Positions 5,856 through 24,895 of a stretch of DNA of 64,000 nucleotides are shown here, in pieces. The notes under the pieces are model-generated. The model saw nothing but the letters and a program-made list of their open reading frames with translations. It made no database searches and was not told the origin of the DNA. Each line of letters begins with the position of its first letter. Positions within the stretch are counted from its first letter, which is position 1. A program made the translations under genes and the position numbers. Location of the stretch: positions 26,787 through 90,786 of the IMG/VR virus record IMGVR_UViG_3300027733_000042. One strand, 5' to 3'. The DNA is from a virus.

Positions 5856-7832
5856 TTAATCTTTAAAAAATCTATCCTTTATTTTTTTCATATGTTCCAT
5901 GGATTCCATATCAAACACATTAGATTGAACTTTAGGTCCGTCGCCAGATGCAGGTGCAGTACTGTTTAATCGACGTAGCTCATCAAAATTATACAAACTC
6001 TTTTTATTATTTTCACGATAGACGTTAAATATTTTTTCTTCGAGTTCTTTTCGATATTCAGCTGGAGCATTCTCAAACGTCTCAATTCCTATATCCCAGA
6101 ACTGTGTCGAGTCGAAAAATGGTGCAATATTTATGCAGGTCATAGCTAAATCATCATTTCCATTTTGACCACGATATGCGCCGCCTTTAGTTTTACCAAA
6201 TGACATAAGTTCCATGAAAGTTAAATATTCGTTTGGAATAATCTTATTAATTGTAACTAGATGTTTAAATCGTTCGCAATATTTAATTTTATTTGTTGGC
6301 CCAAGTCGTAATCCGATCTTTGGAACAACTGCCATTTCAGTATGTTTAGTATGAACAAATTGTCCCGTCCAGTATTCAGAATTATCTGCACATCTTGAGT
6401 GAACGATCTCACCTTTATGATTCATCTCCAGGACTATTCTAACTTTGCTAGGATTAAATATTCGATAGATGATAAATTCAGCAGCAGCTGCAAATTGAGT
6501 AACATCAAGTTCATTTGTTCTAAATGTTCCAATTTGAACTAGTGAAATTGCATCTAATTCGTTTCGAACAGCATCCTTCTTCTTTAAGAGTTCAGAAACT
6601 GGCATCGCAACTACTTTGTAAATATTTAAAACTGAATAGTCGCCGCCAACTCCATCTGCAGTATCAATACTGAATAGGTAATTTGCAGCATCATTCTTAA
6701 AGTCTGATAATTGACGCTTTACGTATCTAGGATGCAATTTTAAGTGATCGTTAATATACATACGATCTTCATCTAGTGCAAAATTGGAGTTTTTATAGTC
6801 TACTCGGATATTATTTAATTTCTTAAGCTCATTTGAGCCAAGTAATAATTGATCTGACGAGAAGAACTGAAGTCCATATTCCTGGTTAAAATCATCAATT
6901 GAACCGATATCAGCAATTGCGTCTTCTTTCCATTTTTCATCACGACCAGGTACTTGCCACCAGTCGACTCGAAGGGCAACATAATTACTTCTATTTTCAA
7001 TTGCATCAACCCAAATATCATGGAACTTGTTTTTACCATTTGGTGTAGATGTAATTATAATCTTTGAATTAGGATCGGCAGAAATCGTTGGGAATATTGT
7101 ACGATAAAACTCATCTAATTTTGCTTGGTCAATATGCGCAAACTCATCAATATACAATAAGTTAACGGTTAAACCGATACCTGATTTTTTAGTGGTTGTT
7201 CTACCAACAACACGACTATCATTATCAAATTTTATATTACCGGTATTGACATGTTTAATACCAGGTTTCATAAAGAATGGAAGATTGTCTAATGAAATTC
7301 TGAACTTATCTAATAATTCTCGAGTAGTTGTAAAATTATCTGCAACAAGTAGTGCAGTTTTTTCTGCATGGAATAGAGTAAACCATAAGATAAAGATAGC
7401 AGAAGTCACAGATTTACCAATCTGACGACTTGCCATTAAGATACTATATTTGTTTCCTTGGAATGAAAGTAGAATTTGTTCTTGAAAATCGCGTAACCCG
7501 CCGGCTTCTTTAATTAGTTTGACTCCATCATGCGTTTGAATAAAACAGTAATTATATGCGAAGTAAATAATATCTTCTTTACATTTGGAAAGTTCTTGCC
7601 ATTCATCTGGAGTATATTCAAACGGTAGATTTGCACGCTTGAGATTAATATCATTATCTCTGAATGGAGAATTATGTAATCCCTTAACATCTAACCCATT
7701 ATCAATTTGATCTAATAATTTAGCGATGCGAACAGTCGTCCATATAGAACTATTTGTATCATCGTCGTCTCCGCTCATTCTGGAAATCTTACGTGATGTG
7801 AATGCACCCCTATTTGACATTATATCCTTCAT
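5856..7832 (-). CDS. terL: terminase large subunit (T4 gp17-like)
   Basis: Walker A ASRQIGKS, Walker B LLYIDEFAH, coupling motif ITSTPNG, nuclease motifs IDTADGVGGDYS and NDDLAM. Confidence 0.95.
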   Translation of the reverse strand: MKDIMSNRGAFTSRKISRMSGDDDDTNSSIWTTVRIAKLLDQIDNGLDVKGLHNSPFRDNDINLKRANLPFEYTPDEWQELSKCKEDIIYFAYNYCFIQTHDGVKLIKEAGGLRDFQEQILLSFQGNKYSILMASRQIGKSVTSAIFILWFTLFHAEKTALLVADNFTTTRELLDKFRISLDNLPFFMKPGIKHVNTGNIKFDNDSRVVGRTTTKKSGIGLTVNLLYIDEFAHIDQAKLDEFYRTIFPTISADPNSKIIITSTPNGKNKFHDIWVDAIENRSNYVALRVDWWQVPGRDEKWKEDAIADIGSIDDFNQEYGLQFFSSDQLLLGSNELKKLNNIRVDYKNSNFALDEDRMYINDHLKLHPRYVKRQLSDFKNDAANYLFSIDTADGVGGDYSVLNIYKVVAMPVSELLKKKDAVRNELDAISLVQIGTFRTNELDVTQFAAAAEFIIYRIFNPSKVRIVLEMNHKGEIVHSRCADNSEYWTGQFVHTKHTEMAVVPKIGLRLGPTNKIKYCERFKHLVTINKIIPNEYLTFMELMSFGKTKGGAYRGQNGNDDLAMTCINIAPFFDSTQFWDIGIETFENAPAEYRKELEEKIFNVYRENNKKSLYNFDELRRLNSTAPASGDGPKVQSNVFDMESMEHMKKIKDRFFKD

Positions 7833-8820: not shown

Positions 8821-10485
8821 TTAGTATGATGTTTTTGGTCGAGGTACTATTGATTTTATTTGAATATTTACTGAGCCTAGACCTTCTTCTGAAAGTCCAG
8901 CAGAGTATGCATTTCCAAAACGATCTGAGAATCCTCCTCGAATTAATGGAAGTTCAGCGTCGATTGTCACAATATCATTAAATTCATCAAGTCCTGTGTC
9001 TACTGCATTTGGATTTGCAATTTTTGCAAGTTCATTCTTCTGTGAAACGAGGTTGACTGATACTGAATCGACTCCATTTACCCCTTCGATAATTTTAATT
9101 AAATCACTCTTTGGAACACGATTTCTACGAGTATTTTGAATAAAGAACGTGCCTAATGCATTTAATATATCGCGTTTAATAATATCAGTGTCAATATCGT
9201 CAAATACGATAACTGACGTATTAATAACATAATTACTAGGAATCGGATCAAGTATCTTAATATCAGTTGAAATAAGTTTTGATCCAGATTTTTCAATATA
9301 TCTAAGAAGTTCGTTCTTTTGATAGTCAGTTAGGATAAATCGGGCAAGGTCAGCATTAAAGTAATCTTGGCCAGTACTAAAGGTTTTTCTAATATCTGGA
9401 ATCAAGAATAGATTAAGTACACGGTTATCGACTGCATCAAGAAATACAGTGATAACTGAGAATAGTTTAAGTTTTCGAAGTAAGACTTCATAATGATCAG
9501 CATTAACTAGAGCAAAGCTTTTTGACATTCTTGGAGCAATAAGTCGAGTTAAGTTAGAATCTTCAGGATTTGACCCAAAAAATGGCGGATGTGTTGTTAT
9601 AACATCAATATAGTCATTTAGATTAATTTCATCGCCTAAAATACTAAAACCGGTATCGATGAATTCAAATTGAACTTTACCTGGATCATTTGTTCTAATA
9701 TTTCCATTTGCTCCCTCAGTAACAAGATATTCTACTGAGATATCTGAACCGAAACTTGGAATTTTGCCATAATTGCCGTTTCCAAAATAAAGATCGATTC
9801 CGCTAGTTATTCCAGTTTTAACCATGTATGCATTATCGCCCCTAGGCATGTCTAACATAGAATCATATTTGGTCCATTTTTCACCATTTACATAAACATT
9901 TACATAGAAATTATCTACATAGAAATTTTGTGGGCTACCGATTGAGAAACTATCGATTGCGACACCCTTTGCGGTAACTGTCTGAGTTTCAACGACTCCT
10001 TGACGAATTTGTAATTTCGTACCATTATCCTTGCCGCTAAATGAAAATTTAACTTCATCTTGTGGAAGATCTAAGATATATGTTAGTCCATTATTTAGAC
10101 AGCGCAGCCTGGTTAAATTTGGAACAATTACAAAATCATATTGTGCGTCAACTGCAGCTACGTTCGTAGAAAGCTTTATCTCACCGATTGCTGAGACTGC
10201 ACGACTTGCATTGTGGCCAGTAAGACTGGCTAATGAATAAACTGAGGTTAATCGAGTTGCTTCATTTATATTAAGTTCAGTAATTGCATCTTCAATATAG
10301 TAGAAAACCAGCTGAGTTAAATTCTCTACAACTAAGAGTAATTGTCCGAAAGGTGACGCTGCCGTGAAAACTACACGGTTCTGATCAAATTTACTGGTTA
10401 AGTAATTTATTGACTGACCGAGTATATCCTCGACATAAATGCTAAGTCGTGTAAAGACTTTAAAATTTTCAGTTGCACTAGTCAT
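8821..10485 (-). CDS. baseplate wedge subunit (T4 gp6 / baseplate J-like)
   Basis: ELNINEA...SVYSLASLTGH, LYFGNGNYGKIP, VEYLVTEGANGN, ALVNADHYE and IIEGVNGVDSV motifs. Confidence 0.85.
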   Translation of the reverse strand: MTSATENFKVFTRLSIYVEDILGQSINYLTSKFDQNRVVFTAASPFGQLLLVVENLTQLVFYYIEDAITELNINEATRLTSVYSLASLTGHNASRAVSAIGEIKLSTNVAAVDAQYDFVIVPNLTRLRCLNNGLTYILDLPQDEVKFSFSGKDNGTKLQIRQGVVETQTVTAKGVAIDSFSIGSPQNFYVDNFYVNVYVNGEKWTKYDSMLDMPRGDNAYMVKTGITSGIDLYFGNGNYGKIPSFGSDISVEYLVTEGANGNIRTNDPGKVQFEFIDTGFSILGDEINLNDYIDVITTHPPFFGSNPEDSNLTRLIAPRMSKSFALVNADHYEVLLRKLKLFSVITVFLDAVDNRVLNLFLIPDIRKTFSTGQDYFNADLARFILTDYQKNELLRYIEKSGSKLISTDIKILDPIPSNYVINTSVIVFDDIDTDIIKRDILNALGTFFIQNTRRNRVPKSDLIKIIEGVNGVDSVSVNLVSQKNELAKIANPNAVDTGLDEFNDIVTIDAELPLIRGGFSDRFGNAYSAGLSEEGLGSVNIQIKSIVPRPKTSY

Positions 10486-10520
10486 TTAGTATAATTTCTT
10501 TAGATTATTTATATCAGCAA

Positions 10521-10547
10521 AAACTTTTTTAAGCTTTTCTATATAAT
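10521..10547 (+). promoter_or_regulatory. promoter AAAC-N17-TATAAT upstream of tmRNA
   Basis: AAAC 10521-24, TATAAT 10542-47; same architecture recurs before S1, H1-like and SSB genes. Confidence 0.6.
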
Positions 10548-10580
10548 ACTCAGGATAGATAATATAGATCTAGCAAATAT

Positions 10581-10963
10581 GGGGTCGCCCGGTTTTGACA
10601 GGTAATTTAGTTCTTTGAAGTGCAGGCCGTGTTAGTATTGGAAACACGTTAATCACCTATATACATTTTAAATGACGAAAAGTCAACTTTCACTTTCGAA
10701 GACGCAATGTCTTTCGTTGGTGCTGATTACGCAGTATCTGCATAGTCACTAGGTCGCACTTACCTGTTTTAAAAAATGTGCACCATCAAGGCACTACGGA
10801 TAGACGTGAGGCATACAGTAAGCCGTTATGAGAGTGAGAAGGAAACTCATTATAAACTGTCCAGAAAACCAAAAATTTTGTCTGTTTCGAAAAATAGACT
10901 AAGCTTGTGAATGAATTTCATCGATCAGTTATTTGGACGAGGGTTCGATTCCCTCCGACTCCA
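10581..10963 (+). ncRNA. ssrA: tmRNA (phage-encoded); tag (A)DEKSTFTFEDAMSFVGADYAVSA*
   Basis: 5' GGGGTCG pairs with 3' CGACTCC-A, including the G3:U alanine determinant. T-arm GAGGGTTCGATTCCCTC, 5' GGTTTTGAC, 3' TAAGCTTGTGA. Tag frame 10674-10745 follows TTAAAT. CCA is not encoded. Confidence 0.93.
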
Positions 10964-11054
10964 CGGGAATACGTCTAAGTGGTGAATTGAGAAAGAAATA
11001 TAAAACTTTCTCGCCATTTTGATGTATAAATAATAAAAAAATACAAATATTACT

Positions 11055-11237
11055 ATGAAAAAGATGATCGTGTTATGCATTGCAATGTCTATCTTGGCTT
11101 CATGTGGAAGTAACAGTGCGCCTGCAACAACAGCGACCGTTGATTCTACTAAAGTTGCGGTTGACTCAAGTGCTTGCTGCCCAGCAGTAGACACTGCAAA
11201 AACAGTTGACACAGCGAAAGTTGTGAAAGTAAAGTAA
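11055..11237 (+). CDS. small lipoprotein with VD(S/T) repeats
   Basis: Signal peptide II MKKMIVLCIAMSILAS-C; own promoter motifs and terminator. Confidence 0.8.
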   Translation: MKKMIVLCIAMSILASCGSNSAPATTATVDSTKVAVDSSACCPAVDTAKTVDTAKVVKVK

Positions 11238-11260
11238 TTACTCTTACTTAACGGAAATTA

Positions 11261-11287
11261 AAAGGGATCCAATTGGGTCCCTTTTTT
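11261..11287 (+). terminator. Rho-independent terminator
   Basis: AAAGGGATCC-AATT-GGGTCCCTTTTTT. Confidence 0.85.
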
Positions 11288-11288
11288 G

Positions 11289-11296
11289 TATAAATA
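11289..11296 (+). promoter_or_regulatory. T4-type late promoter TATAAATA (representative of about 14 ATAAATA sites)
   Basis: Exact T4 late consensus 17 nt before an ATG; a gp55-like sigma is encoded in the window. Confidence 0.7.
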
Positions 11297-11313
11297 GAAT
11301 AAAGGTATCTTTC

Positions 11314-21826: not shown

Positions 21827-24800
21827 TTAAGCTCCAGCATATATTATATAATTCATAACTATGAATTCTGGTGAGGGGTCTGTTCCAATACCGGTTGATG
21901 ATAGTATATCACCAACAGTATCAAACGGATAAGTCGCTGAGTCATATCCTACAGGAATACGGTGTTTTAAATTAGGTACCCTAAAGTTAGTTCCAGAAGT
22001 GGATCCATAAACTGTGCCAAGTGCAGCAAATAATGTAACATACGTATATCTACTATGCAGTGTCCCATCGCAGAATAACCAGCCGTTCGGTGCAGTGGTT
22101 CCAGCAAATGGAACAGTTACTCCAATTGGCACTGCACCTAGTCCAGCAATAACTCCATTGACTAATAAGTTATCTCCAATTTCGACTGGTCCGCCGACAT
22201 TTAATCCACCACCAATATTTGCATTTTGAGTTACGTCAAGTTGATCTGCACGCAGTGATTCGATATGTGCACCGCCGGTATAAATACCATCAAAATCAAT
22301 AGCGATAAGTGATTCAACATTTGTAGTATCATCACTACTACTATGTATACCAACATAAATATGTTTTCCGACAACCAAGAATCGTGACGCTAAGAAGTTT
22401 AAATCTTTACAATATACTTGTGTTGGAGGGCTAGTTACTGACCATGTAGAATTAGTAGTGTCCACTCCTCCAGAAACATCAACTTTAAATGCATAGGATG
22501 TTGATTTATCTGAATTAACTGCTAGAACATATAGGCTATTCCCTAACTGTTTCATATCATATATCTCACAGGTACCGCTAGGAATAGTTAGAGTCAGCTC
22601 GGTAATTTTGTCATATATGTGTCTGCACGGATCTGCATCATCACTAAGATCTCCAGCAGCTGATGGCAACATTAAATCAAATATTGTTATTTTATTACCG
22701 TATCCGGCGTAAATATATTTTTTATTTGCAACAATTGCACCACGTTTATTTACAGATGGAAAACTATCAATCGGTATTGCAGTCTCGTACGCTACGTGCA
22801 AACTGCCAAGTCCATCCCAGGAAATGTTACCAGTCTTATTGTTTAAATTAAATACGTCAATTCTTACTTGATAATCGGTGCTTATTTCGTGATTTCCGCC
22901 ACTATGTTGCCAAGTAAGAGTTATAACCTTATCATCAACGATATCCATATCAAGTATGGCATTCTCACGATATCTGAACGGTGCGGACACAGTTGATTCA
23001 AACATGGCTGGGACAGCTGAATTTACCACGACTGGAGTGGTAGGATCGGTAATATTAATTGTCGTGACTCCGCCAAGGGATTCGGTGTTAAATACTCCAA
23101 GTAATGTGTATAGACCGTTTGTTGCAACAACTGCATGATTGCCAGCAATCAATACACGATATGCACTATTTAATTCCGGAGAATCACCGCCAGGCGCCCC
23201 ATATCCAAGTCGAGAGATTCGGCGTGGTGCAGTGTTCCTAACACTATCAAGTTCACATATTTGGAAATATGTTCGGTAGAATAGATGTGCTGGACTGGCC
23301 GTATGGTTTGGAGTACGGTCGTTATGTTGATTATTCACAACATACATGTATTTTCCAGCAATTGCAATATCTGCTGCTCCTGGACCAACTAGTGAATCAG
23401 AACTATTATACGAATCAGTAGAAACAAAACACCCTGGCAGATGTGCTATTACATTTGTCGTTGTTCCATCAAATTTTGCAGACCATTCTGAGATCGGATT
23501 ATTTGGGTTCTCTATTGTAAATCTATCAAAATACCCATATTTTTCTACTAATGTCGTCGGGTTCGGATCGCCAGAAACAGTATAAATAGTATTTCCATCT
23601 CGAGCAATTCCCATATGACCTAAGAACGAACTTGGTGAAACATTCGCAGATACTTCAACGTCTACTGCTCTAGGCTCAGTCGTTGCCACTTGGATAATAT
23701 TTCCACCATTCTGTAAAACGTCGTCATTTAAGTATATTCCATTAAGATCAGAAGCAGCGGTCATCATAAAATAATCTTTCGCTGGATGATTTGTGATATA
23801 TCCAGTCTCAGCCGGAAGATTTGCAATCAGATAGTCTTTTGCGATTCCAATATTTGCTCCATTGATTCCACCATCAGATAGGTAAAATAAGATACCGTCT
23901 GCTAAATTTCCAGTGTTTCCAGTAATTTCATTAAGCCCGTATTTTGAACCAATATATACATGGGCTGATTCGTTTACTGAATCAATAATATTTGCCTTTG
24001 GTGTAATAAATTCAAAAACTCCATTAAAATTACGAGTAAATAGAACTCCAGTCTCAGGTATATCCATTGAAAACTGTGCAACATTGTAGTGATCAGAATA
24101 TACTCCGCCTGGCGGAATTACTCTAAGATATCGCATCTTATAGTTTTCGTAAACATTTGTGAGTATCGGATTTGGATCAGGCAGAGTATCATCTTGGTAT
24201 AACTCACCTAATTCTACATGATATCTACCAATCGAACCAAATCGGTGGTCAACATAGATTGATAATAGTGAATTATAGAGAGTCTCAGTACCAATTTGTG
24301 GCATGACCGGCGTTTCCGCAGGACCATATATAAATCCTGGAGGAATTAGGGCAGCCATCGTATCCTCATCAAAATTATTTAAGAAGAGTATATCGTTATT
24401 TGCATTGTTTCCGCCAACTCCACCAAGTGTAACGTCAGTTATATTGTCTGAACGACGATTGAATAGGATAAATCGATCATCATTTGGAGAACCAATACCT
24501 AATCCTCTAGTGAATGGTGAAGGTGAACCGGCTAGGTAATTATTAATAATTGCAGTTAGATCAAATAAGAAATTCCATGAAGTTCCATCCCATTGCCATA
24601 CTGCAAAATTTGATGAGTCTAAATAAAAATCACCAGGTAATAAATCATCGGGAATAGCTGGATCATCGACAATCGTAGGATCACCCGGCCCAACAAACCA
24701 GATATTTCCTCTAGTTCCATCTGGACCTTGAATACCGCCAGGACCAGCTGATCCTTGATTACCAAGGAATCCTCTTAACCCCTGCTCTCCAATGCCTAAC

Positions 24801-24895
24801 TCTAATAATTTATTAAAGTTGAAGTTTATTTTATCAATTGAAATTTCCTGAGCGTCTGCTGGAAATAGTTCTTTTAAATTAATTCGTATTGGCAT
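21827..24895 (-). CDS. tail fibre protein: collagen-like repeat, propeller-like region, C-terminal phage tail collar domain
   Basis: (Gly-X-Y)9 GEQGLRGFLGNQGSAGPGGIQGPDGTR; VPIGVTVPFAGTTAPNGWLFCDG...FRVPNL...MNYII collar signature; LVIVD-like 'IAGKYMYV' blades. Confidence 0.85.
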   Translation of the reverse strand: MPIRINLKELFPADAQEISIDKINFNFNKLLELGIGEQGLRGFLGNQGSAGPGGIQGPDGTRGNIWFVGPGDPTIVDDPAIPDDLLPGDFYLDSSNFAVWQWDGTSWNFLFDLTAIINNYLAGSPSPFTRGLGIGSPNDDRFILFNRRSDNITDVTLGGVGGNNANNDILFLNNFDEDTMAALIPPGFIYGPAETPVMPQIGTETLYNSLLSIYVDHRFGSIGRYHVELGELYQDDTLPDPNPILTNVYENYKMRYLRVIPPGGVYSDHYNVAQFSMDIPETGVLFTRNFNGVFEFITPKANIIDSVNESAHVYIGSKYGLNEITGNTGNLADGILFYLSDGGINGANIGIAKDYLIANLPAETGYITNHPAKDYFMMTAASDLNGIYLNDDVLQNGGNIIQVATTEPRAVDVEVSANVSPSSFLGHMGIARDGNTIYTVSGDPNPTTLVEKYGYFDRFTIENPNNPISEWSAKFDGTTTNVIAHLPGCFVSTDSYNSSDSLVGPGAADIAIAGKYMYVVNNQHNDRTPNHTASPAHLFYRTYFQICELDSVRNTAPRRISRLGYGAPGGDSPELNSAYRVLIAGNHAVVATNGLYTLLGVFNTESLGGVTTINITDPTTPVVVNSAVPAMFESTVSAPFRYRENAILDMDIVDDKVITLTWQHSGGNHEISTDYQVRIDVFNLNNKTGNISWDGLGSLHVAYETAIPIDSFPSVNKRGAIVANKKYIYAGYGNKITIFDLMLPSAAGDLSDDADPCRHIYDKITELTLTIPSGTCEIYDMKQLGNSLYVLAVNSDKSTSYAFKVDVSGGVDTTNSTWSVTSPPTQVYCKDLNFLASRFLVVGKHIYVGIHSSSDDTTNVESLIAIDFDGIYTGGAHIESLRADQLDVTQNANIGGGLNVGGPVEIGDNLLVNGVIAGLGAVPIGVTVPFAGTTAPNGWLFCDGTLHSRYTYVTLFAALGTVYGSTSGTNFRVPNLKHRIPVGYDSATYPFDTVGDILSSTGIGTDPSPEFIVMNYIIYAGA

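What the first reader, a model, noticed from the sequence alone, without database searches (positions are those of the whole stretch)
10581..10963. Phage tmRNA with an unusually long tag ending YAVSA
Seen: an intact tRNA-like domain and a 23-codon tag, (A)DEKSTFTFEDAMSFVGADYAVSA. Known: most bacterial tags are about 10-11 aa and end in YALAA/LAA, the ClpX determinant. Inference: the phage supplies its own ribosome-rescue RNA. The extended, hydrophobic, SA-ending tag may reroute or weaken degradation, or may counter host anti-phage RNases that create non-stop mRNAs or cut host tmRNA. No smpB is present in the window.
Basis: partly seen in the sequence, partly recalled or inferred. Interest (0 to 1): 0.7.

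Follow-up and report, generated by a model that had tools for sequence, protein, structure and literature searches.

The report
Phage tmRNA with conserved long tag
A large lake phage carries its own ribosome-rescue RNA whose 23-residue tag, more than twice as long as that of its likely hosts, is kept as a peptide in dozens of related phages, whereas the odd 'SA' ending is only a one-letter strain variant.

Summary
Window 10581-10964(+) is a full-length one-piece tmRNA (ARAGORN; Rfam RF00023 94.2 bits, E 2e-35). It lies between phage baseplate, terminase and tail genes of a 90.8-kb IMG/VR virus record.

The 23-codon reading frame is real. In relatives pN/pS is 0.28 and 0.23 in that frame, against 1.8-3.3 in the other two frames. 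A at -4 is invariant in 32 of 32.

The tag is the hallmark of a large family of uncultured aquatic (mostly lake and freshwater) phages, with 66 distinct sequences. In 21 of 53 related loci the gene sits at the same spot.

Bacterial genomes sharing the 29-nt 3' end are mostly Bacteroidota. 98 of their 107 tags have 8-9 residues (GENNYALAA type).

65 of 66 family members end in AA. A 99.2%-identical contig from another lake reads Ala (10737 T>G).

No smpB was found in this record or in five related records.

Phage tmRNAs and long tags are already known. The conserved phage-only tag is a modest novelty. This scan has reported comparable long-tag phage tmRNAs on other DNA.

The parts
10581..10964 (+). 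one-piece tmRNA (ssrA) gene of the phage
   Evidence: ARAGORN. Rfam RF00023 at 94.2 bits, E 2e-35, model 1-374 of 374. The same hit appears in the whole record.
10581..10587 (+). 5' strand of the acceptor stem (GGGGTCG), G3 opposite U at 10960
   Evidence: Read. It pairs with 10956-10962 (CGACTCC). The G3:U pair is the alanine identity element; that assignment is established knowledge and was not assayed here.
10670..10673 (+). frame-setting upstream bases (AAAT), with A at -4 from the resume codon
   Evidence: A at -4 and at -3 in 32 of 32 distinct family sequences. [quoted passage not shown]
10674..10742 (+). tag reading frame, 23 codons: DEKSTFTFEDAMSFVGADYAVSA
   Evidence: ARAGORN. The Rfam alignment puts the consensus resume codon on GAC. 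pN/pS is 0.28 for codons 11-23 and 0.23 for the 13 codons of the aromatic-acidic core, against 1.8-3.3 in the other frames.
10737..10739 (+). TCT (Ser), codon 22: the one-base strain variant that makes the tag end in SA instead of AA
   Evidence: 10737 T>G (Ala) in X3, in part of X2, and in the X19 and X20 contigs. T is kept in a 142-nt X2 contig. 24 of 25 unique 23-codon tags have Ala here.
10743..10745 (+). stop codon TAG of the tag
   Evidence: The stop stays at this position in 25 of 25 unique 23-codon tags: TAA in 12, TAG in 13.
10935..10963 (+). T arm, 3' acceptor strand and discriminator A (the 29-nt 3' end of the tRNA-like domain)
   Evidence: Exact copies in 5 viral contigs and in at least 120 bacterial genome contigs, mostly Bacteroidota by the 80 titles printed.
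8821..10485 (-). baseplate wedge gene, divergent neighbour of the tmRNA (synteny anchor)
   Evidence: phrog_219 baseplate wedge subunit, E 3.1e-27. 65 related loci were fetched with it. The tmRNA lies within 400 nt upstream and divergent in 21 of the 53 loci with enough flank.
5856..7832 (-). large terminase subunit (phage context)
   Evidence: Pfam Terminase_6N, E 2.9e-15. phrog_5989, E 4.6e-49.
21827..24895 (-). tail fibre/collar protein on the other side of the tmRNA (phage context)
   Evidence: Pfam Collar, E 2.3e-18. phrog_9116 tail protein, E 5.7e-21.

Best explanation
This is a working ribosome-rescue RNA carried by a large phage of roughly 250 kb from lakes, whose host is probably a member of the Bacteroidota.

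Inferred course of events:
- The RNA is transcribed during infection and trimmed.
- It receives CCA from the host, because CCA is not encoded.
- Host AlaRS charges it with alanine through the G3:U pair.
- It binds host SmpB and EF-Tu, because no phage smpB was found.
- It enters ribosomes stalled at the ends of broken or stop-less mRNAs.
- Translation resumes at GAC, four bases after the invariant A.
- Ala plus 23 residues are added, and the ribosome is released at the tag's stop codon.

Shown here: the tag is translated and its amino-acid sequence matters, because both halves are under purifying selection as a peptide.

Inferred design of the tag: it has two parts.
- The C-terminal part, D-[LYV]-A-V-A-A in the family, is an ordinary ssrA-type Ala-Ala degron for the host Clp machinery.
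- The conserved aromatic-acidic block ahead of it, [ST]-[FWM]-[TS]-[FY]-E-D-A-[MLI]-[SA]-F-V-G, is a second recognition element. It may serve Lon or FtsH, or an unknown adaptor.

The Ser in this window's copy is a neutral or mildly weakening strain variant. The likely benefit to the phage is more rescue capacity and faster recycling of ribosomes and amino acids while host and phage mRNAs are being cut.
For: - Gene and fold.
- Phage context and synteny.
- Frame and translation: pN/pS is 0.28 (codons 11-23, 25 unique tags found through the 5' half of the tag) and 0.23 (13 core codons, 21 unique sequences found independently through the 3' end of the tag). The other frames give 1.8-3.3. The stop alternates TAA and TAG at a fixed place. 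A at -4 in 32 of 32 matches the E. coli A86 rule (PMC2481249).
- Tag conservation against a diverging RNA body: the tag stays nearly constant while PK1, helix 2, PK2-4 and even the acceptor stem diverge (alignment).
- Canonical degron end: AA in 65 of 66 distinct family sequences. Terminal Ala-Ala is critical for ssrA-like degrons in E. coli (PMC10862746, one passage read).
- Long, aromatic-rich tags as Lon signals: Mycoplasma (PMC8403727, passages read).
- Dependence on the host partner: SmpB in 0 of 1 and 0 of 5 records.
- Link to Clp proteolysis in other phages: a full-length ClpP gene sits 50 nt upstream of the tmRNA in contig G005.
- Hint of expression: contigs of two lake RNA libraries (two studies) cover relatives' tmRNAs at summed depths of 30-200, against 0-29 on the flanks. 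They end at 10964, directly followed by Illumina adaptor.
Against: - No assay was done. Charging, SmpB binding, tagging and degradation are all inferred.
- The RNA-library evidence is weak. It rests on assembled contigs, mostly of relatives 90-95% alike; the depths sum several strains; and DNA carry-over is not excluded.
- The host is not identified. Four Vampirovibrionales MAG contigs share the same 3' end and have 19-22-residue tags.
- Nothing found here would read the extra block. The record and its relatives hold no SspB, ClpS, Lon_C, AAA_2 or ClpB_D2-small.
- Part of the nucleotide conservation may serve RNA structure. There are small hairpins inside the frame, one with compensatory synonymous changes in 4 of 32 sequences.
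- 32 of 53 related loci lack a tmRNA at this spot, so the gene is dispensable for the lineage.
- Both family searches used fixed DNA patterns, so members with other codons were missed, and each half of the tag is unbiased in only one of the two sets.
Confidence: 0.78

Rival explanations
1. Rerouting or sparing tag. The long tag with its SA end is built to weaken or redirect ClpXP degradation, so that rescued products survive or go to a different fate.
For: The window's own copy ends AVSA, and a 142-nt contig from a second sample keeps the T. One other phage tmRNA (G005) is predicted to end ALSA, and Cellulophaga phage Calle_1 is predicted to end AVGV. Terminal Ala-Ala is critical in E. coli (PMC10862746), so Ser at the penultimate place could lower ClpX affinity.
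Against: 65 of 66 distinct family sequences end in AA. The last two Ala codons use all four third bases while staying Ala. That means selection for AA, the opposite of escape. A strain 99.2% identical reads Ala. The base that differs lies in the loop of a 4-bp hairpin, so it changes nothing in the RNA.
Confidence: 0.08
2. Decoy. The RNA is not translated, but soaks up host SmpB or AlaRS to shut down host trans-translation. This was proposed for the TLD-only RNA of mycobacteriophage DS6A.
For: No phage smpB was found. The DS6A precedent is described in PMC4131195 (passages read).
Against: The full mRNA-like domain is present (model 1-374). The tag evolves under peptide-level purifying selection with a fixed stop and an invariant frame-setting A. 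An untranslated decoy would not show this.
Confidence: 0.04
3. Host DNA, a prophage junction or an attP remnant. The tmRNA is the bacterial ssrA at the edge of an integrated element, or a copy kept for integration.
For: ssrA is a common integration site, and fragments of it occur in prophages (PMC9004378, passages read). The 3' 29 nt are identical to many Bacteroidota ssrA genes.
Against: The gene is full length. It has virion genes on both sides and the same divergent position next to the baseplate gene in 21 related contigs. The record holds no tyrosine integrase. G+C is even across the window. The tag differs from every bacterial tag retrieved, and its coding DNA was not found in 401 sampled Bacteroidota genomes.
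Confidence: 0.02
4. RNA-level constraint only. The long frame is conserved because the mRNA-like domain needs this sequence as structure or as a binding site, and the peptide itself is irrelevant beyond its AA end.
For: There are small conserved hairpins inside the frame: GAC-GAAAA-GUC, CGAA...UUCG and GCAG-UAG-CUGC, the last with AU to UA switches in 4 of 32 sequences.
Against: Synonymous divergence is high (pS 0.41 and 0.57) while amino-acid divergence is low (pN 0.11 and 0.13), and only in this frame. The RNAalifold consensus energy for the region is weak, -6.5.
Confidence: 0.08

Closest known systems
Chromosomal one-piece tmRNA (SsrA, Rfam RF00023) of Bacteroidota (Flavobacteriales, Cytophagales)
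   Same: It aligns end to end (nhmmer, about 30-42 bits over positions 1-384). The 29-nt T arm plus acceptor 3' strand is identical. Both have the G3:U pair, a resume codon for D or G, and a C-terminal A-x-A-A.
   Different: Bacterial tags have 8-9 residues in 98 of 107 loci, GENNYALAA alone or with a second stop in 55, against 23 here. The aromatic-acidic block has no counterpart in them. The gene lies in a phage virion-gene module. The tag-coding DNA was not found in 401 sampled Bacteroidota genomes.
Known phage-encoded tmRNAs: mycobacteriophages Bxz1, Cali, Catera and others, Bacillus phage G (PMC4131195); huge phages (PMC7162821); Cellulophaga phages Calle and phi38:1, crAss-like cr50_1 (GenBank annotation); 402 of 18,146 phage genomes (PMC9004378)
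   Same: A complete tmRNA in a lytic-type large phage genome, usually without smpB nearby. ARAGORN predicts a 22-residue tag for Calle_1, so long phage tags already sit in public records.
   Different: Outside the 3' 31-35 nt there is no detectable sequence similarity to them. The papers I read list such genes but do not analyse tags. The peptide-level conservation of one long tag across dozens of contigs is not described in them. The huge phage LR756500, one of the nearest terminase relatives, has an ordinary 10-residue tag, GNNAEMRMAA.
Long ssrA tags of Mycoplasma, read by Lon
   Same: A tag of more than 20 residues, enriched in aromatic and hydrophobic residues ahead of the C-terminus (PMC8403727).
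   Different: Mycoplasmas lack ClpXP, and their tag switched protease. Here the canonical AA end is kept as well, and the likely hosts have Clp, Lon and FtsH (general knowledge of Bacteroidota, not tested here). No degradation data exist for this tag.
Two-part ssrA tags with an adaptor site (E. coli AANDENYALAA with SspB; the Caulobacter tag ending FAVAA, recalled from memory and not checked here)
   Same: The architecture is the same: an upstream polar or aromatic segment plus a C-terminal xAA. Upstream elements of ssrA matter for ClpA and SspB (PMC10862746).
   Different: No SspB in the phage records. Among the 14 control genomes the SspB family rang only in E. coli and Caulobacter, not in Bacteroides thetaiotaomicron. 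No partner for the upstream block is known.
Other long-tag phage tmRNA families reported earlier in this scan (e1-5410262, 35 residues; e1-6091712, 37 residues)
   Same: A phage-only tmRNA with a tag several times the host length and a conserved core (AI notes; not checked here).
   Different: This is a different tag family by length. Whether the cores are related was not tested. First-reader notes e1-5965035, e1-5340404 and e1-5391752 probably describe members of the present family.

Membership tests
tmRNA (SsrA), Rfam RF00023, one-piece form | Covariance-model score above the curated gathering score over the full model | tested here: met
   94.2 bits against 47, E 2e-35, model 1-374 of 374, not truncated. 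ARAGORN agrees.
tmRNA (SsrA), Rfam RF00023, one-piece form | tRNA-like domain: 7-bp acceptor stem with the G3:U70 alanine identity pair, discriminator A, and a T arm with a 7-nt TTCGAnT-type loop | tested here: met
   GGGGTCG / CGACTCC with G3 opposite U. A at 10963. GAGGG-TTCGATT-CCCTC at 10939-10955. Posterior probabilities are high there in the Rfam alignment.
tmRNA (SsrA), Rfam RF00023, one-piece form | Frame-setting A four bases upstream of the resume codon | tested here: met
   A at -4 in the window and in 32 of 32 family sequences. The rule comes from PMC2481249.
tmRNA (SsrA), Rfam RF00023, one-piece form | Tag reading frame without a start codon, ending in an in-frame stop, and translated | tested here: met
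   23 codons plus TAG. Peptide-level purifying selection appears only in this frame. Translation itself is inferred from that, not observed.
tmRNA (SsrA), Rfam RF00023, one-piece form | Tag ends in a hydrophobic Ala-Ala type degron | tested here: inconclusive
   The window ends AVSA. 65 of 66 family sequences end in AA, and a near-identical strain reads AVAA. The effect of Ser was not assayed.
tmRNA (SsrA), Rfam RF00023, one-piece form | Pseudoknots (PK1 before the tag, PK2-4 after it) and helix 2 joining them to the tRNA-like domain | tested here: inconclusive
   The Rfam alignment places helix 2 and the PK1 hairpin with high posterior probability, but the PK2-4 region with low probability. 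That region differs strongly among relatives. I made no covariation count for these helices.
tmRNA (SsrA), Rfam RF00023, one-piece form | Works with SmpB, is charged by AlaRS, and rescues stalled ribosomes | not testable with these tools
   No smpB in the record or in five related records. Use of the host proteins is inferred.
Phage-encoded tmRNA (as opposed to a host gene or a prophage junction) | Lies inside a phage genome with phage genes on both sides, and recurs in related phages | tested here: met
   Terminase, baseplate wedge and tail collar genes flank it. It is an IMG/VR virus record. The position is syntenic in 21 of 53 related loci. No integrase.

The most novel reading that the evidence does not exclude
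The conserved aromatic-acidic block of the tag, about 13-15 residues ahead of the ordinary AVAA end, is a phage-specific address. It would mark the unfinished proteins made in infected cells differently from host-tagged ones and hand them to a particular partner. That partner could be Lon or FtsH, a protease built with a phage ClpP as in related contigs, or an unknown adaptor. On this reading a widespread group of lake phages reprograms the fate of stalled-ribosome products, rather than merely adding rescue capacity.
Probability: 0.3. Interest if true: 0.7.

Novelty: new variant of a known kind. Interest (0 to 1): 0.45.

Why it matters
Phage tmRNAs are listed in genome papers, but their tags have hardly been looked at. 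Here a tag 2.5 times the likely host length is held constant as a peptide across many lake phages, while the RNA around it drifts. Selection is therefore acting on what the tag does after translation.

That makes a concrete question testable with simple reporters and pull-downs: do phages only boost ribosome rescue, or do they also decide what happens to the rescued products?

There is also a practical point. ARAGORN misses or mis-frames the tag in many members. Automatic annotation therefore under-reports this family.

Tried and rejected
Searches for a reader of the extra tag block in the phage came back empty:
- SspB (PF04386): 0 of 5 records.
- Lon_C (PF05362): 0 of 5.
- AAA_2 of ClpX, ClpA or ClpB type (PF07724): 0 of 5.
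- ClpS (PF02617): 0 of 6. This followed a lead from note e1-5340404.
- ClpB_D2-small (PF10431): 0 of 6.
- Generic AAA (PF00004) hit only G004 and G005. I did not follow these hits.
- ClpP family (PF00574): 4 of 5 relatives, but not the window's own record. In the closest relatives (G001, G002) the match is partial, positions 24-147. The G002 gene lies next to a 412-aa ORF without a family and may be a prohead protease. I therefore do not count it as a tag reader.

Other checks that led nowhere or were weak:
- Tyrosine integrase (PF00589): none in the record.
- Cultured relatives: Flavobacterium phage MaF61 has no tmRNA, and Phage C48C1 has only sub-threshold tRNA-like hits.
- blastn of the tmRNA against 50,697 phage records found only the 3' 31-35 nt, in 9 records.
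- RNAalifold on the mRNA-like region gave only three small hairpins and a weak energy of -6.5. I did not build a covariance model, because the RNA is too long for the calibration limit stated by the tool.
- The promoter and terminator scan gave one sigma-70-like site at 10466-10495 and no terminator after the gene. Bacteroidota and phage late promoters are not covered by that scan. A 7-bp hairpin plus a T run at 10989-11020 is visible in the sequence, but its 10-nt loop is outside the scan's rule.
I dropped it because the spacing of the aromatic residues differs. No test was done.
- TAG read-through was considered and rejected. 12 of 25 unique tags stop with TAA at the same place.
- Parts without cover in the read layout (10776-10911 in the RNA runs, 10980-11047 in all runs) are not used as evidence.
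- Supplementary tables of PMC9004378 (list of phage tmRNAs) and PMC7162821 could bear on whether this tag family was listed before.
Full report
**1. Is it there?** Yes. ARAGORN reports a single RNA gene in the 64-kb window: a tmRNA at 10581-10964(+) with the tag DEKSTFTFEDAMSFVGADYAVSA*. Rfam's covariance model RF00023 matches 10581-10966(+) over its whole length (1-374 of 374) with 94.2 bits, twice the gathering score, and E 2e-35.

The following can be read directly from the sequence:
- The 5' strand GGGGTCG pairs with CGACTCC at 10956-10962, and G3 lies opposite U.
- The discriminator is A at 10963.
- The T arm is GAGGG-TTCGATT-CCCTC.
- CCA is not encoded.
- The resume codon GAC is at 10674 and the stop TAG at 10743.

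**2. Phage or host?** Phage.
- The window is bases 26787-90786 of a 90.8-kb IMG/VR virus record that CheckV rates 36% complete. That implies a genome of roughly 250 kb.
- To the left of the tmRNA, on the minus strand, lie a baseplate wedge gene (8821-10485, phrog_219, E 3e-27) and the large terminase (5856-7832, Terminase_6N, E 3e-15). To the right lies a tail-collar protein (21827-24895).
- G+C is flat at 0.31-0.39. No integrase is present in the record.
- The terminase is nearest to uncultured huge phages (LR7565xx), Flavobacterium phage MaF61 and the Lak phages, at 29-36% identity.

**3. Relatives.**
- The baseplate protein retrieved 65 related viral loci.
- Searching them with eight tmRNA queries (nhmmer), 21 of the 53 loci with more than 600 nt of upstream flank have a tmRNA within 400 nt of the baseplate gene's start, divergently oriented as in the window. 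The other 32 have none within the fetched locus. Three loci with short flanks hold a cut copy.
- ARAGORN alone found only 18. It misses the closest relatives (L011, L012, L055), which carry an unusual T loop.
- Subclades have different long tags: DEKSTFTFEDAMSFV..., GNTSIWDVINGFVGAPATEVEYA[IV]AA, GNTNFWSLVN..LLAA. One 207-kb relative has a 13-residue version, GNSFVGAEMAIAA, read from the alignment. The FVGA core is shared.
- Of five larger related records, four have a tmRNA above the Rfam cut-off and none has SmpB. The window's own record has none either.

**4. Is the 23-codon frame real?** I collected family members in two independent ways.

First set: a DNA pattern over codons 3-11.
- It found 14 viral and 34 metagenome contigs. 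Several are the same contig filed in both collections.
- 48 complete tags, counting the window's, were read from them. One further locus is cut.
- 38 of the 49 sequences examined (the window plus 48 loci) have enough flank, and they give 32 distinct 450-nt sequences.
- For the 25 unique 23-codon tags, taking only codons 11-23 (outside the pattern), Nei-Gojobori pS is 0.41 and pN is 0.11. The ratio is 0.28 in ARAGORN's frame and 2.9 and 1.8 in the other two.

Second set: a pattern over the last seven codons.
- It found 38 viral contigs, 29 of them new. 28 of the 29 read the same tag family. The exception, L280, looks like a protein C-terminus.
- For the 13 codons upstream of that pattern, 21 unique sequences from 37 loci give pS 0.57 and pN 0.13. 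The ratio is 0.23, against 3.3 and 1.9 in the other frames.

Further support:
- The stop codon stays in place while switching between TAA (12) and TAG (13). The last Ala codon uses all four third bases.
- A at -4 and -3 from the resume codon is invariant in 32 of 32. In E. coli the equivalent A86 sets the frame four bases downstream (PMC2481249, passages read).
- The Rfam alignment also puts the consensus resume codon on GAC.

So a different resume codon does not give an ordinary tag. The long tag is translated, and its sequence is selected as a peptide. The alignment shows the contrast by eye: the tag is nearly constant, whereas PK1, helix 2, the PK2-4 region and even the acceptor stem differ widely.

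**5. The 'SA' ending.**
- Over both sets, 66 distinct nucleotide sequences carry the family's core. 63 end AVAA, 1 AIAA, 1 ALAA, and only the window ends AVSA. The 29 loci of the second set were selected for an AA end. In the first set, which was not so selected, 47 of 47 other complete tags end in AA.
- Contigs of public runs were laid on 10300-11300. They show 10737 T>G, that is TCT Ser to GCT Ala, in three places: a 395-nt contig of lake run X3 that differs from the window at only three positions; one of two X2 contigs at that place; and all contigs of the two RNA libraries that cover it.
- A 142-nt X2 contig with no differences keeps T.
- Ser is thus a genuine variant seen in the likely source sample and in one more sample. 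It is a strain-level single-base polymorphism in a family whose consensus is the canonical Ala-Ala end.
- The base lies in the 3-nt loop of a small hairpin (GCAG-UAU-CUGC), so it does not touch RNA pairing.

**6. Host tag.**
Of the 80 titles printed, 4 are Vampirovibrionales MAGs and the rest carry Bacteroidota names: Flavobacteriaceae, Flavobacteriales, Cytophagales, Chryseolinea, Reichenbachiella, Amoebophilaceae and others.
- ARAGORN found a tmRNA in 107 of the 120 loci. 98 tags have 8-9 residues: GENNYALAA 55, GENKYALAA 10, GESNYAMAA 9, GENNFALAA 8, and so on. Nine are longer, at 13-22 residues, among them the four Vampirovibrionales tags. All but one ambiguous tag end in AA.
- The window's tmRNA aligns end to end with these genes at about 30-42 bits.
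- The 72-nt tag-coding stretch was not found in 401 genomes sampled across the phylum, apart from one 24-nt match at E 0.008.
- The host is therefore probably a Bacteroidota member, and the phage tag is neither the host's tag nor a recent copy of it. The host itself is not identified.
- A 2025 paper describes large aquatic 'moraphages' with predicted Bacteroidota hosts, DnaJ and DnaK, and kinship to Lak phages (PMC12619734, passages read). This phage may belong there. I did not test that. By the listing the paper does not contain the word tmRNA.

**7. Mechanism.**
- Shown: a structurally complete tmRNA in a phage, a translated and selected tag, a canonical degron end in the family, and no phage smpB in the DNA at hand.
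- Inferred from established knowledge of trans-translation (review PMC8012679, passages read): charging by the host AlaRS, delivery with host SmpB and EF-Tu to stalled ribosomes, tagging, release, and degradation by Clp, Lon or FtsH-type proteases.
- The same review gives 8-35 residues as the natural range of tags, so 23 is long but not unheard of.
- The aromatic-acidic block is reminiscent of the long aromatic Mycoplasma tag that Lon reads (PMC8403727), and of the upstream adaptor-binding part of proteobacterial tags (PMC10862746). This is a resemblance, not a test.
- A functional link between phage tmRNA and Clp proteolysis is suggested by another phage contig (G005). There a DnaJ-like gene, an unknown gene, a full-length ClpP gene (208 bits) and a tmRNA with a 27-codon tag follow each other on one strand. 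ClpP ends 50 nt before the tmRNA.
- The window's own genome also carries tRNAs, Y-RNA-like genes and Ro60, according to an earlier follow-up on the same record (e1-6048398; not re-tested here apart from the three tRNAs seen). That fits a phage investing in RNA and translation upkeep.

**8. Expression.** Only a hint. Contigs from two lake metatranscriptome libraries (two studies) cover the 5' two-thirds and the 3' end of the tmRNA of close relatives, 90-99% alike. Summed word depths are 30-200 there, against 0-29 on the flanking genes. In both libraries contigs end at 10964 and run straight into Illumina adaptor sequence (tables 2, 7, 8). That would fit RNA molecules ending at the mature 3' terminus. 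Contigs cannot show level or strand, and DNA carry-over is possible.

**9. Known or new?** Phage tmRNAs are known:
- eight mycobacteriophages and Bacillus phage G (PMC4131195);
- huge phages, with SmpB in some (PMC7162821);
- 402 of 18,146 phage genomes (PMC9004378);
- annotated tmRNAs in Cellulophaga and crAss-like phages, one of them with a predicted 22-residue tag.

My literature searches found no paper that analyses phage tmRNA tags or describes this family. Supplements were not available. Within this scan, follow-ups on other genomes have already reported phage tmRNAs with conserved 35- and 37-residue tags, and first-reader notes describe 24-residue tags that are probably members of the present family. 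These are AI notes that I did not check.

My verdict is a new variant of a known kind. It is of moderate interest for the conserved two-part tag and of low interest for the 'SA' ending that prompted the finding.

Noticed in passing
L248:58-2040 and G005:C1:44751-45126 (152-kb IMG/VR contig): One strand carries, in order, a DnaJ-like gene (DnaJ_C 94.7 bits), a 156-aa unknown gene, a full-length ClpP gene (208 bits), a 50-nt gap, and a tmRNA (90.7 bits) with a predicted 27-codon tag ending ALSA. This looks like a phage 'proteostasis' cluster.
   Followed up: partly
L011:4167-4548, L012:2869-3250, L055:5524-5905: The closest relatives (95% baseplate identity) have a tmRNA whose T arm reads GGGGC-TATCGTAT-GCCCC instead of the usual 7-nt TTCGATT loop. 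ARAGORN does not call them, but G002 (the L055 contig) scores 86.5 bits with Rfam.
   Followed up: partly
L004, L006, L262-L290: ARAGORN gives wrong or no tags for many family members (for example VDYAVAA, EMTKSQLSLTKML, APVPLMGL, VKADLEH...), although the conserved frame reads the long tag. Automatic annotation will therefore hide this family.
   Followed up: yes
L097, L103, L109, L130 (Vampirovibrionales MAG contigs): These share the exact 29-nt 3' end with the phage and with Bacteroidota tmRNAs, but have 424-434-nt tmRNAs with 19-22-residue tags (AETQTARNNVVAFARPVRAIAA and similar). By their titles, two come from Lake Mendota bins.
   Followed up: no
L018:5466-5910 (207-kb contig, 77% baseplate identity): At the syntenic spot lies a tmRNA with a short tag, GNSFVGAEMAIAA. 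It has the FVGA core and the AA end without the 10-residue N-terminal block, plus an insertion of about 60 nt in the pseudoknot region. It is either the ancestral short form or a deletion.
   Followed up: partly
window 10565-10572: The palindrome TAGATCTA lies 9 nt before the tmRNA 5' end. It is kept in the closer relatives (L203, L208, L212, L013, L206) but not in the more distant ones. It may be a promoter or processing signal.
   Followed up: no
window 10731-10741 and family alignment: A 4-bp hairpin, GCAG-loop-CUGC, is formed by the last four tag codons. 4 of 32 sequences swap GCA..GCU for GCU..GCA, a compensatory pair of synonymous changes. A second hairpin spans codons 8-15 (CGAA...UUCG), with inner pairings that differ between the M-S and L-A tag variants.
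   Followed up: partly
window 11056 onward (+): A small ORF starts MKKMIVLCIAMSILASCGS..., a lipoprotein-type signal peptide with a lipobox Cys. It lies just after the tmRNA. A first-reader note reads Bacteroidetes O-glycosylation sequons in it. RNA-library contigs cover 11048-11257.
   Followed up: no
G000:C1:2593-2633 region (L002:1405-1691), outside the window: tRNA-Met(CAT) twice and tRNA-Asp(GTC) on the minus strand of the same phage record. Earlier notes place Y-RNA-like genes and Ro60 next to them.
   Followed up: no
L250:1258-1965 (G002, closest large relative): A 235-aa ClpP-family protein (82 bits, partial profile match 24-147) lies next to a 412-aa ORF without a family and a sigma-70-like gene. 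It is probably a prohead protease. By synteny, I estimate the corresponding place would lie just beyond the 5' end of the window's record.
   Followed up: partly
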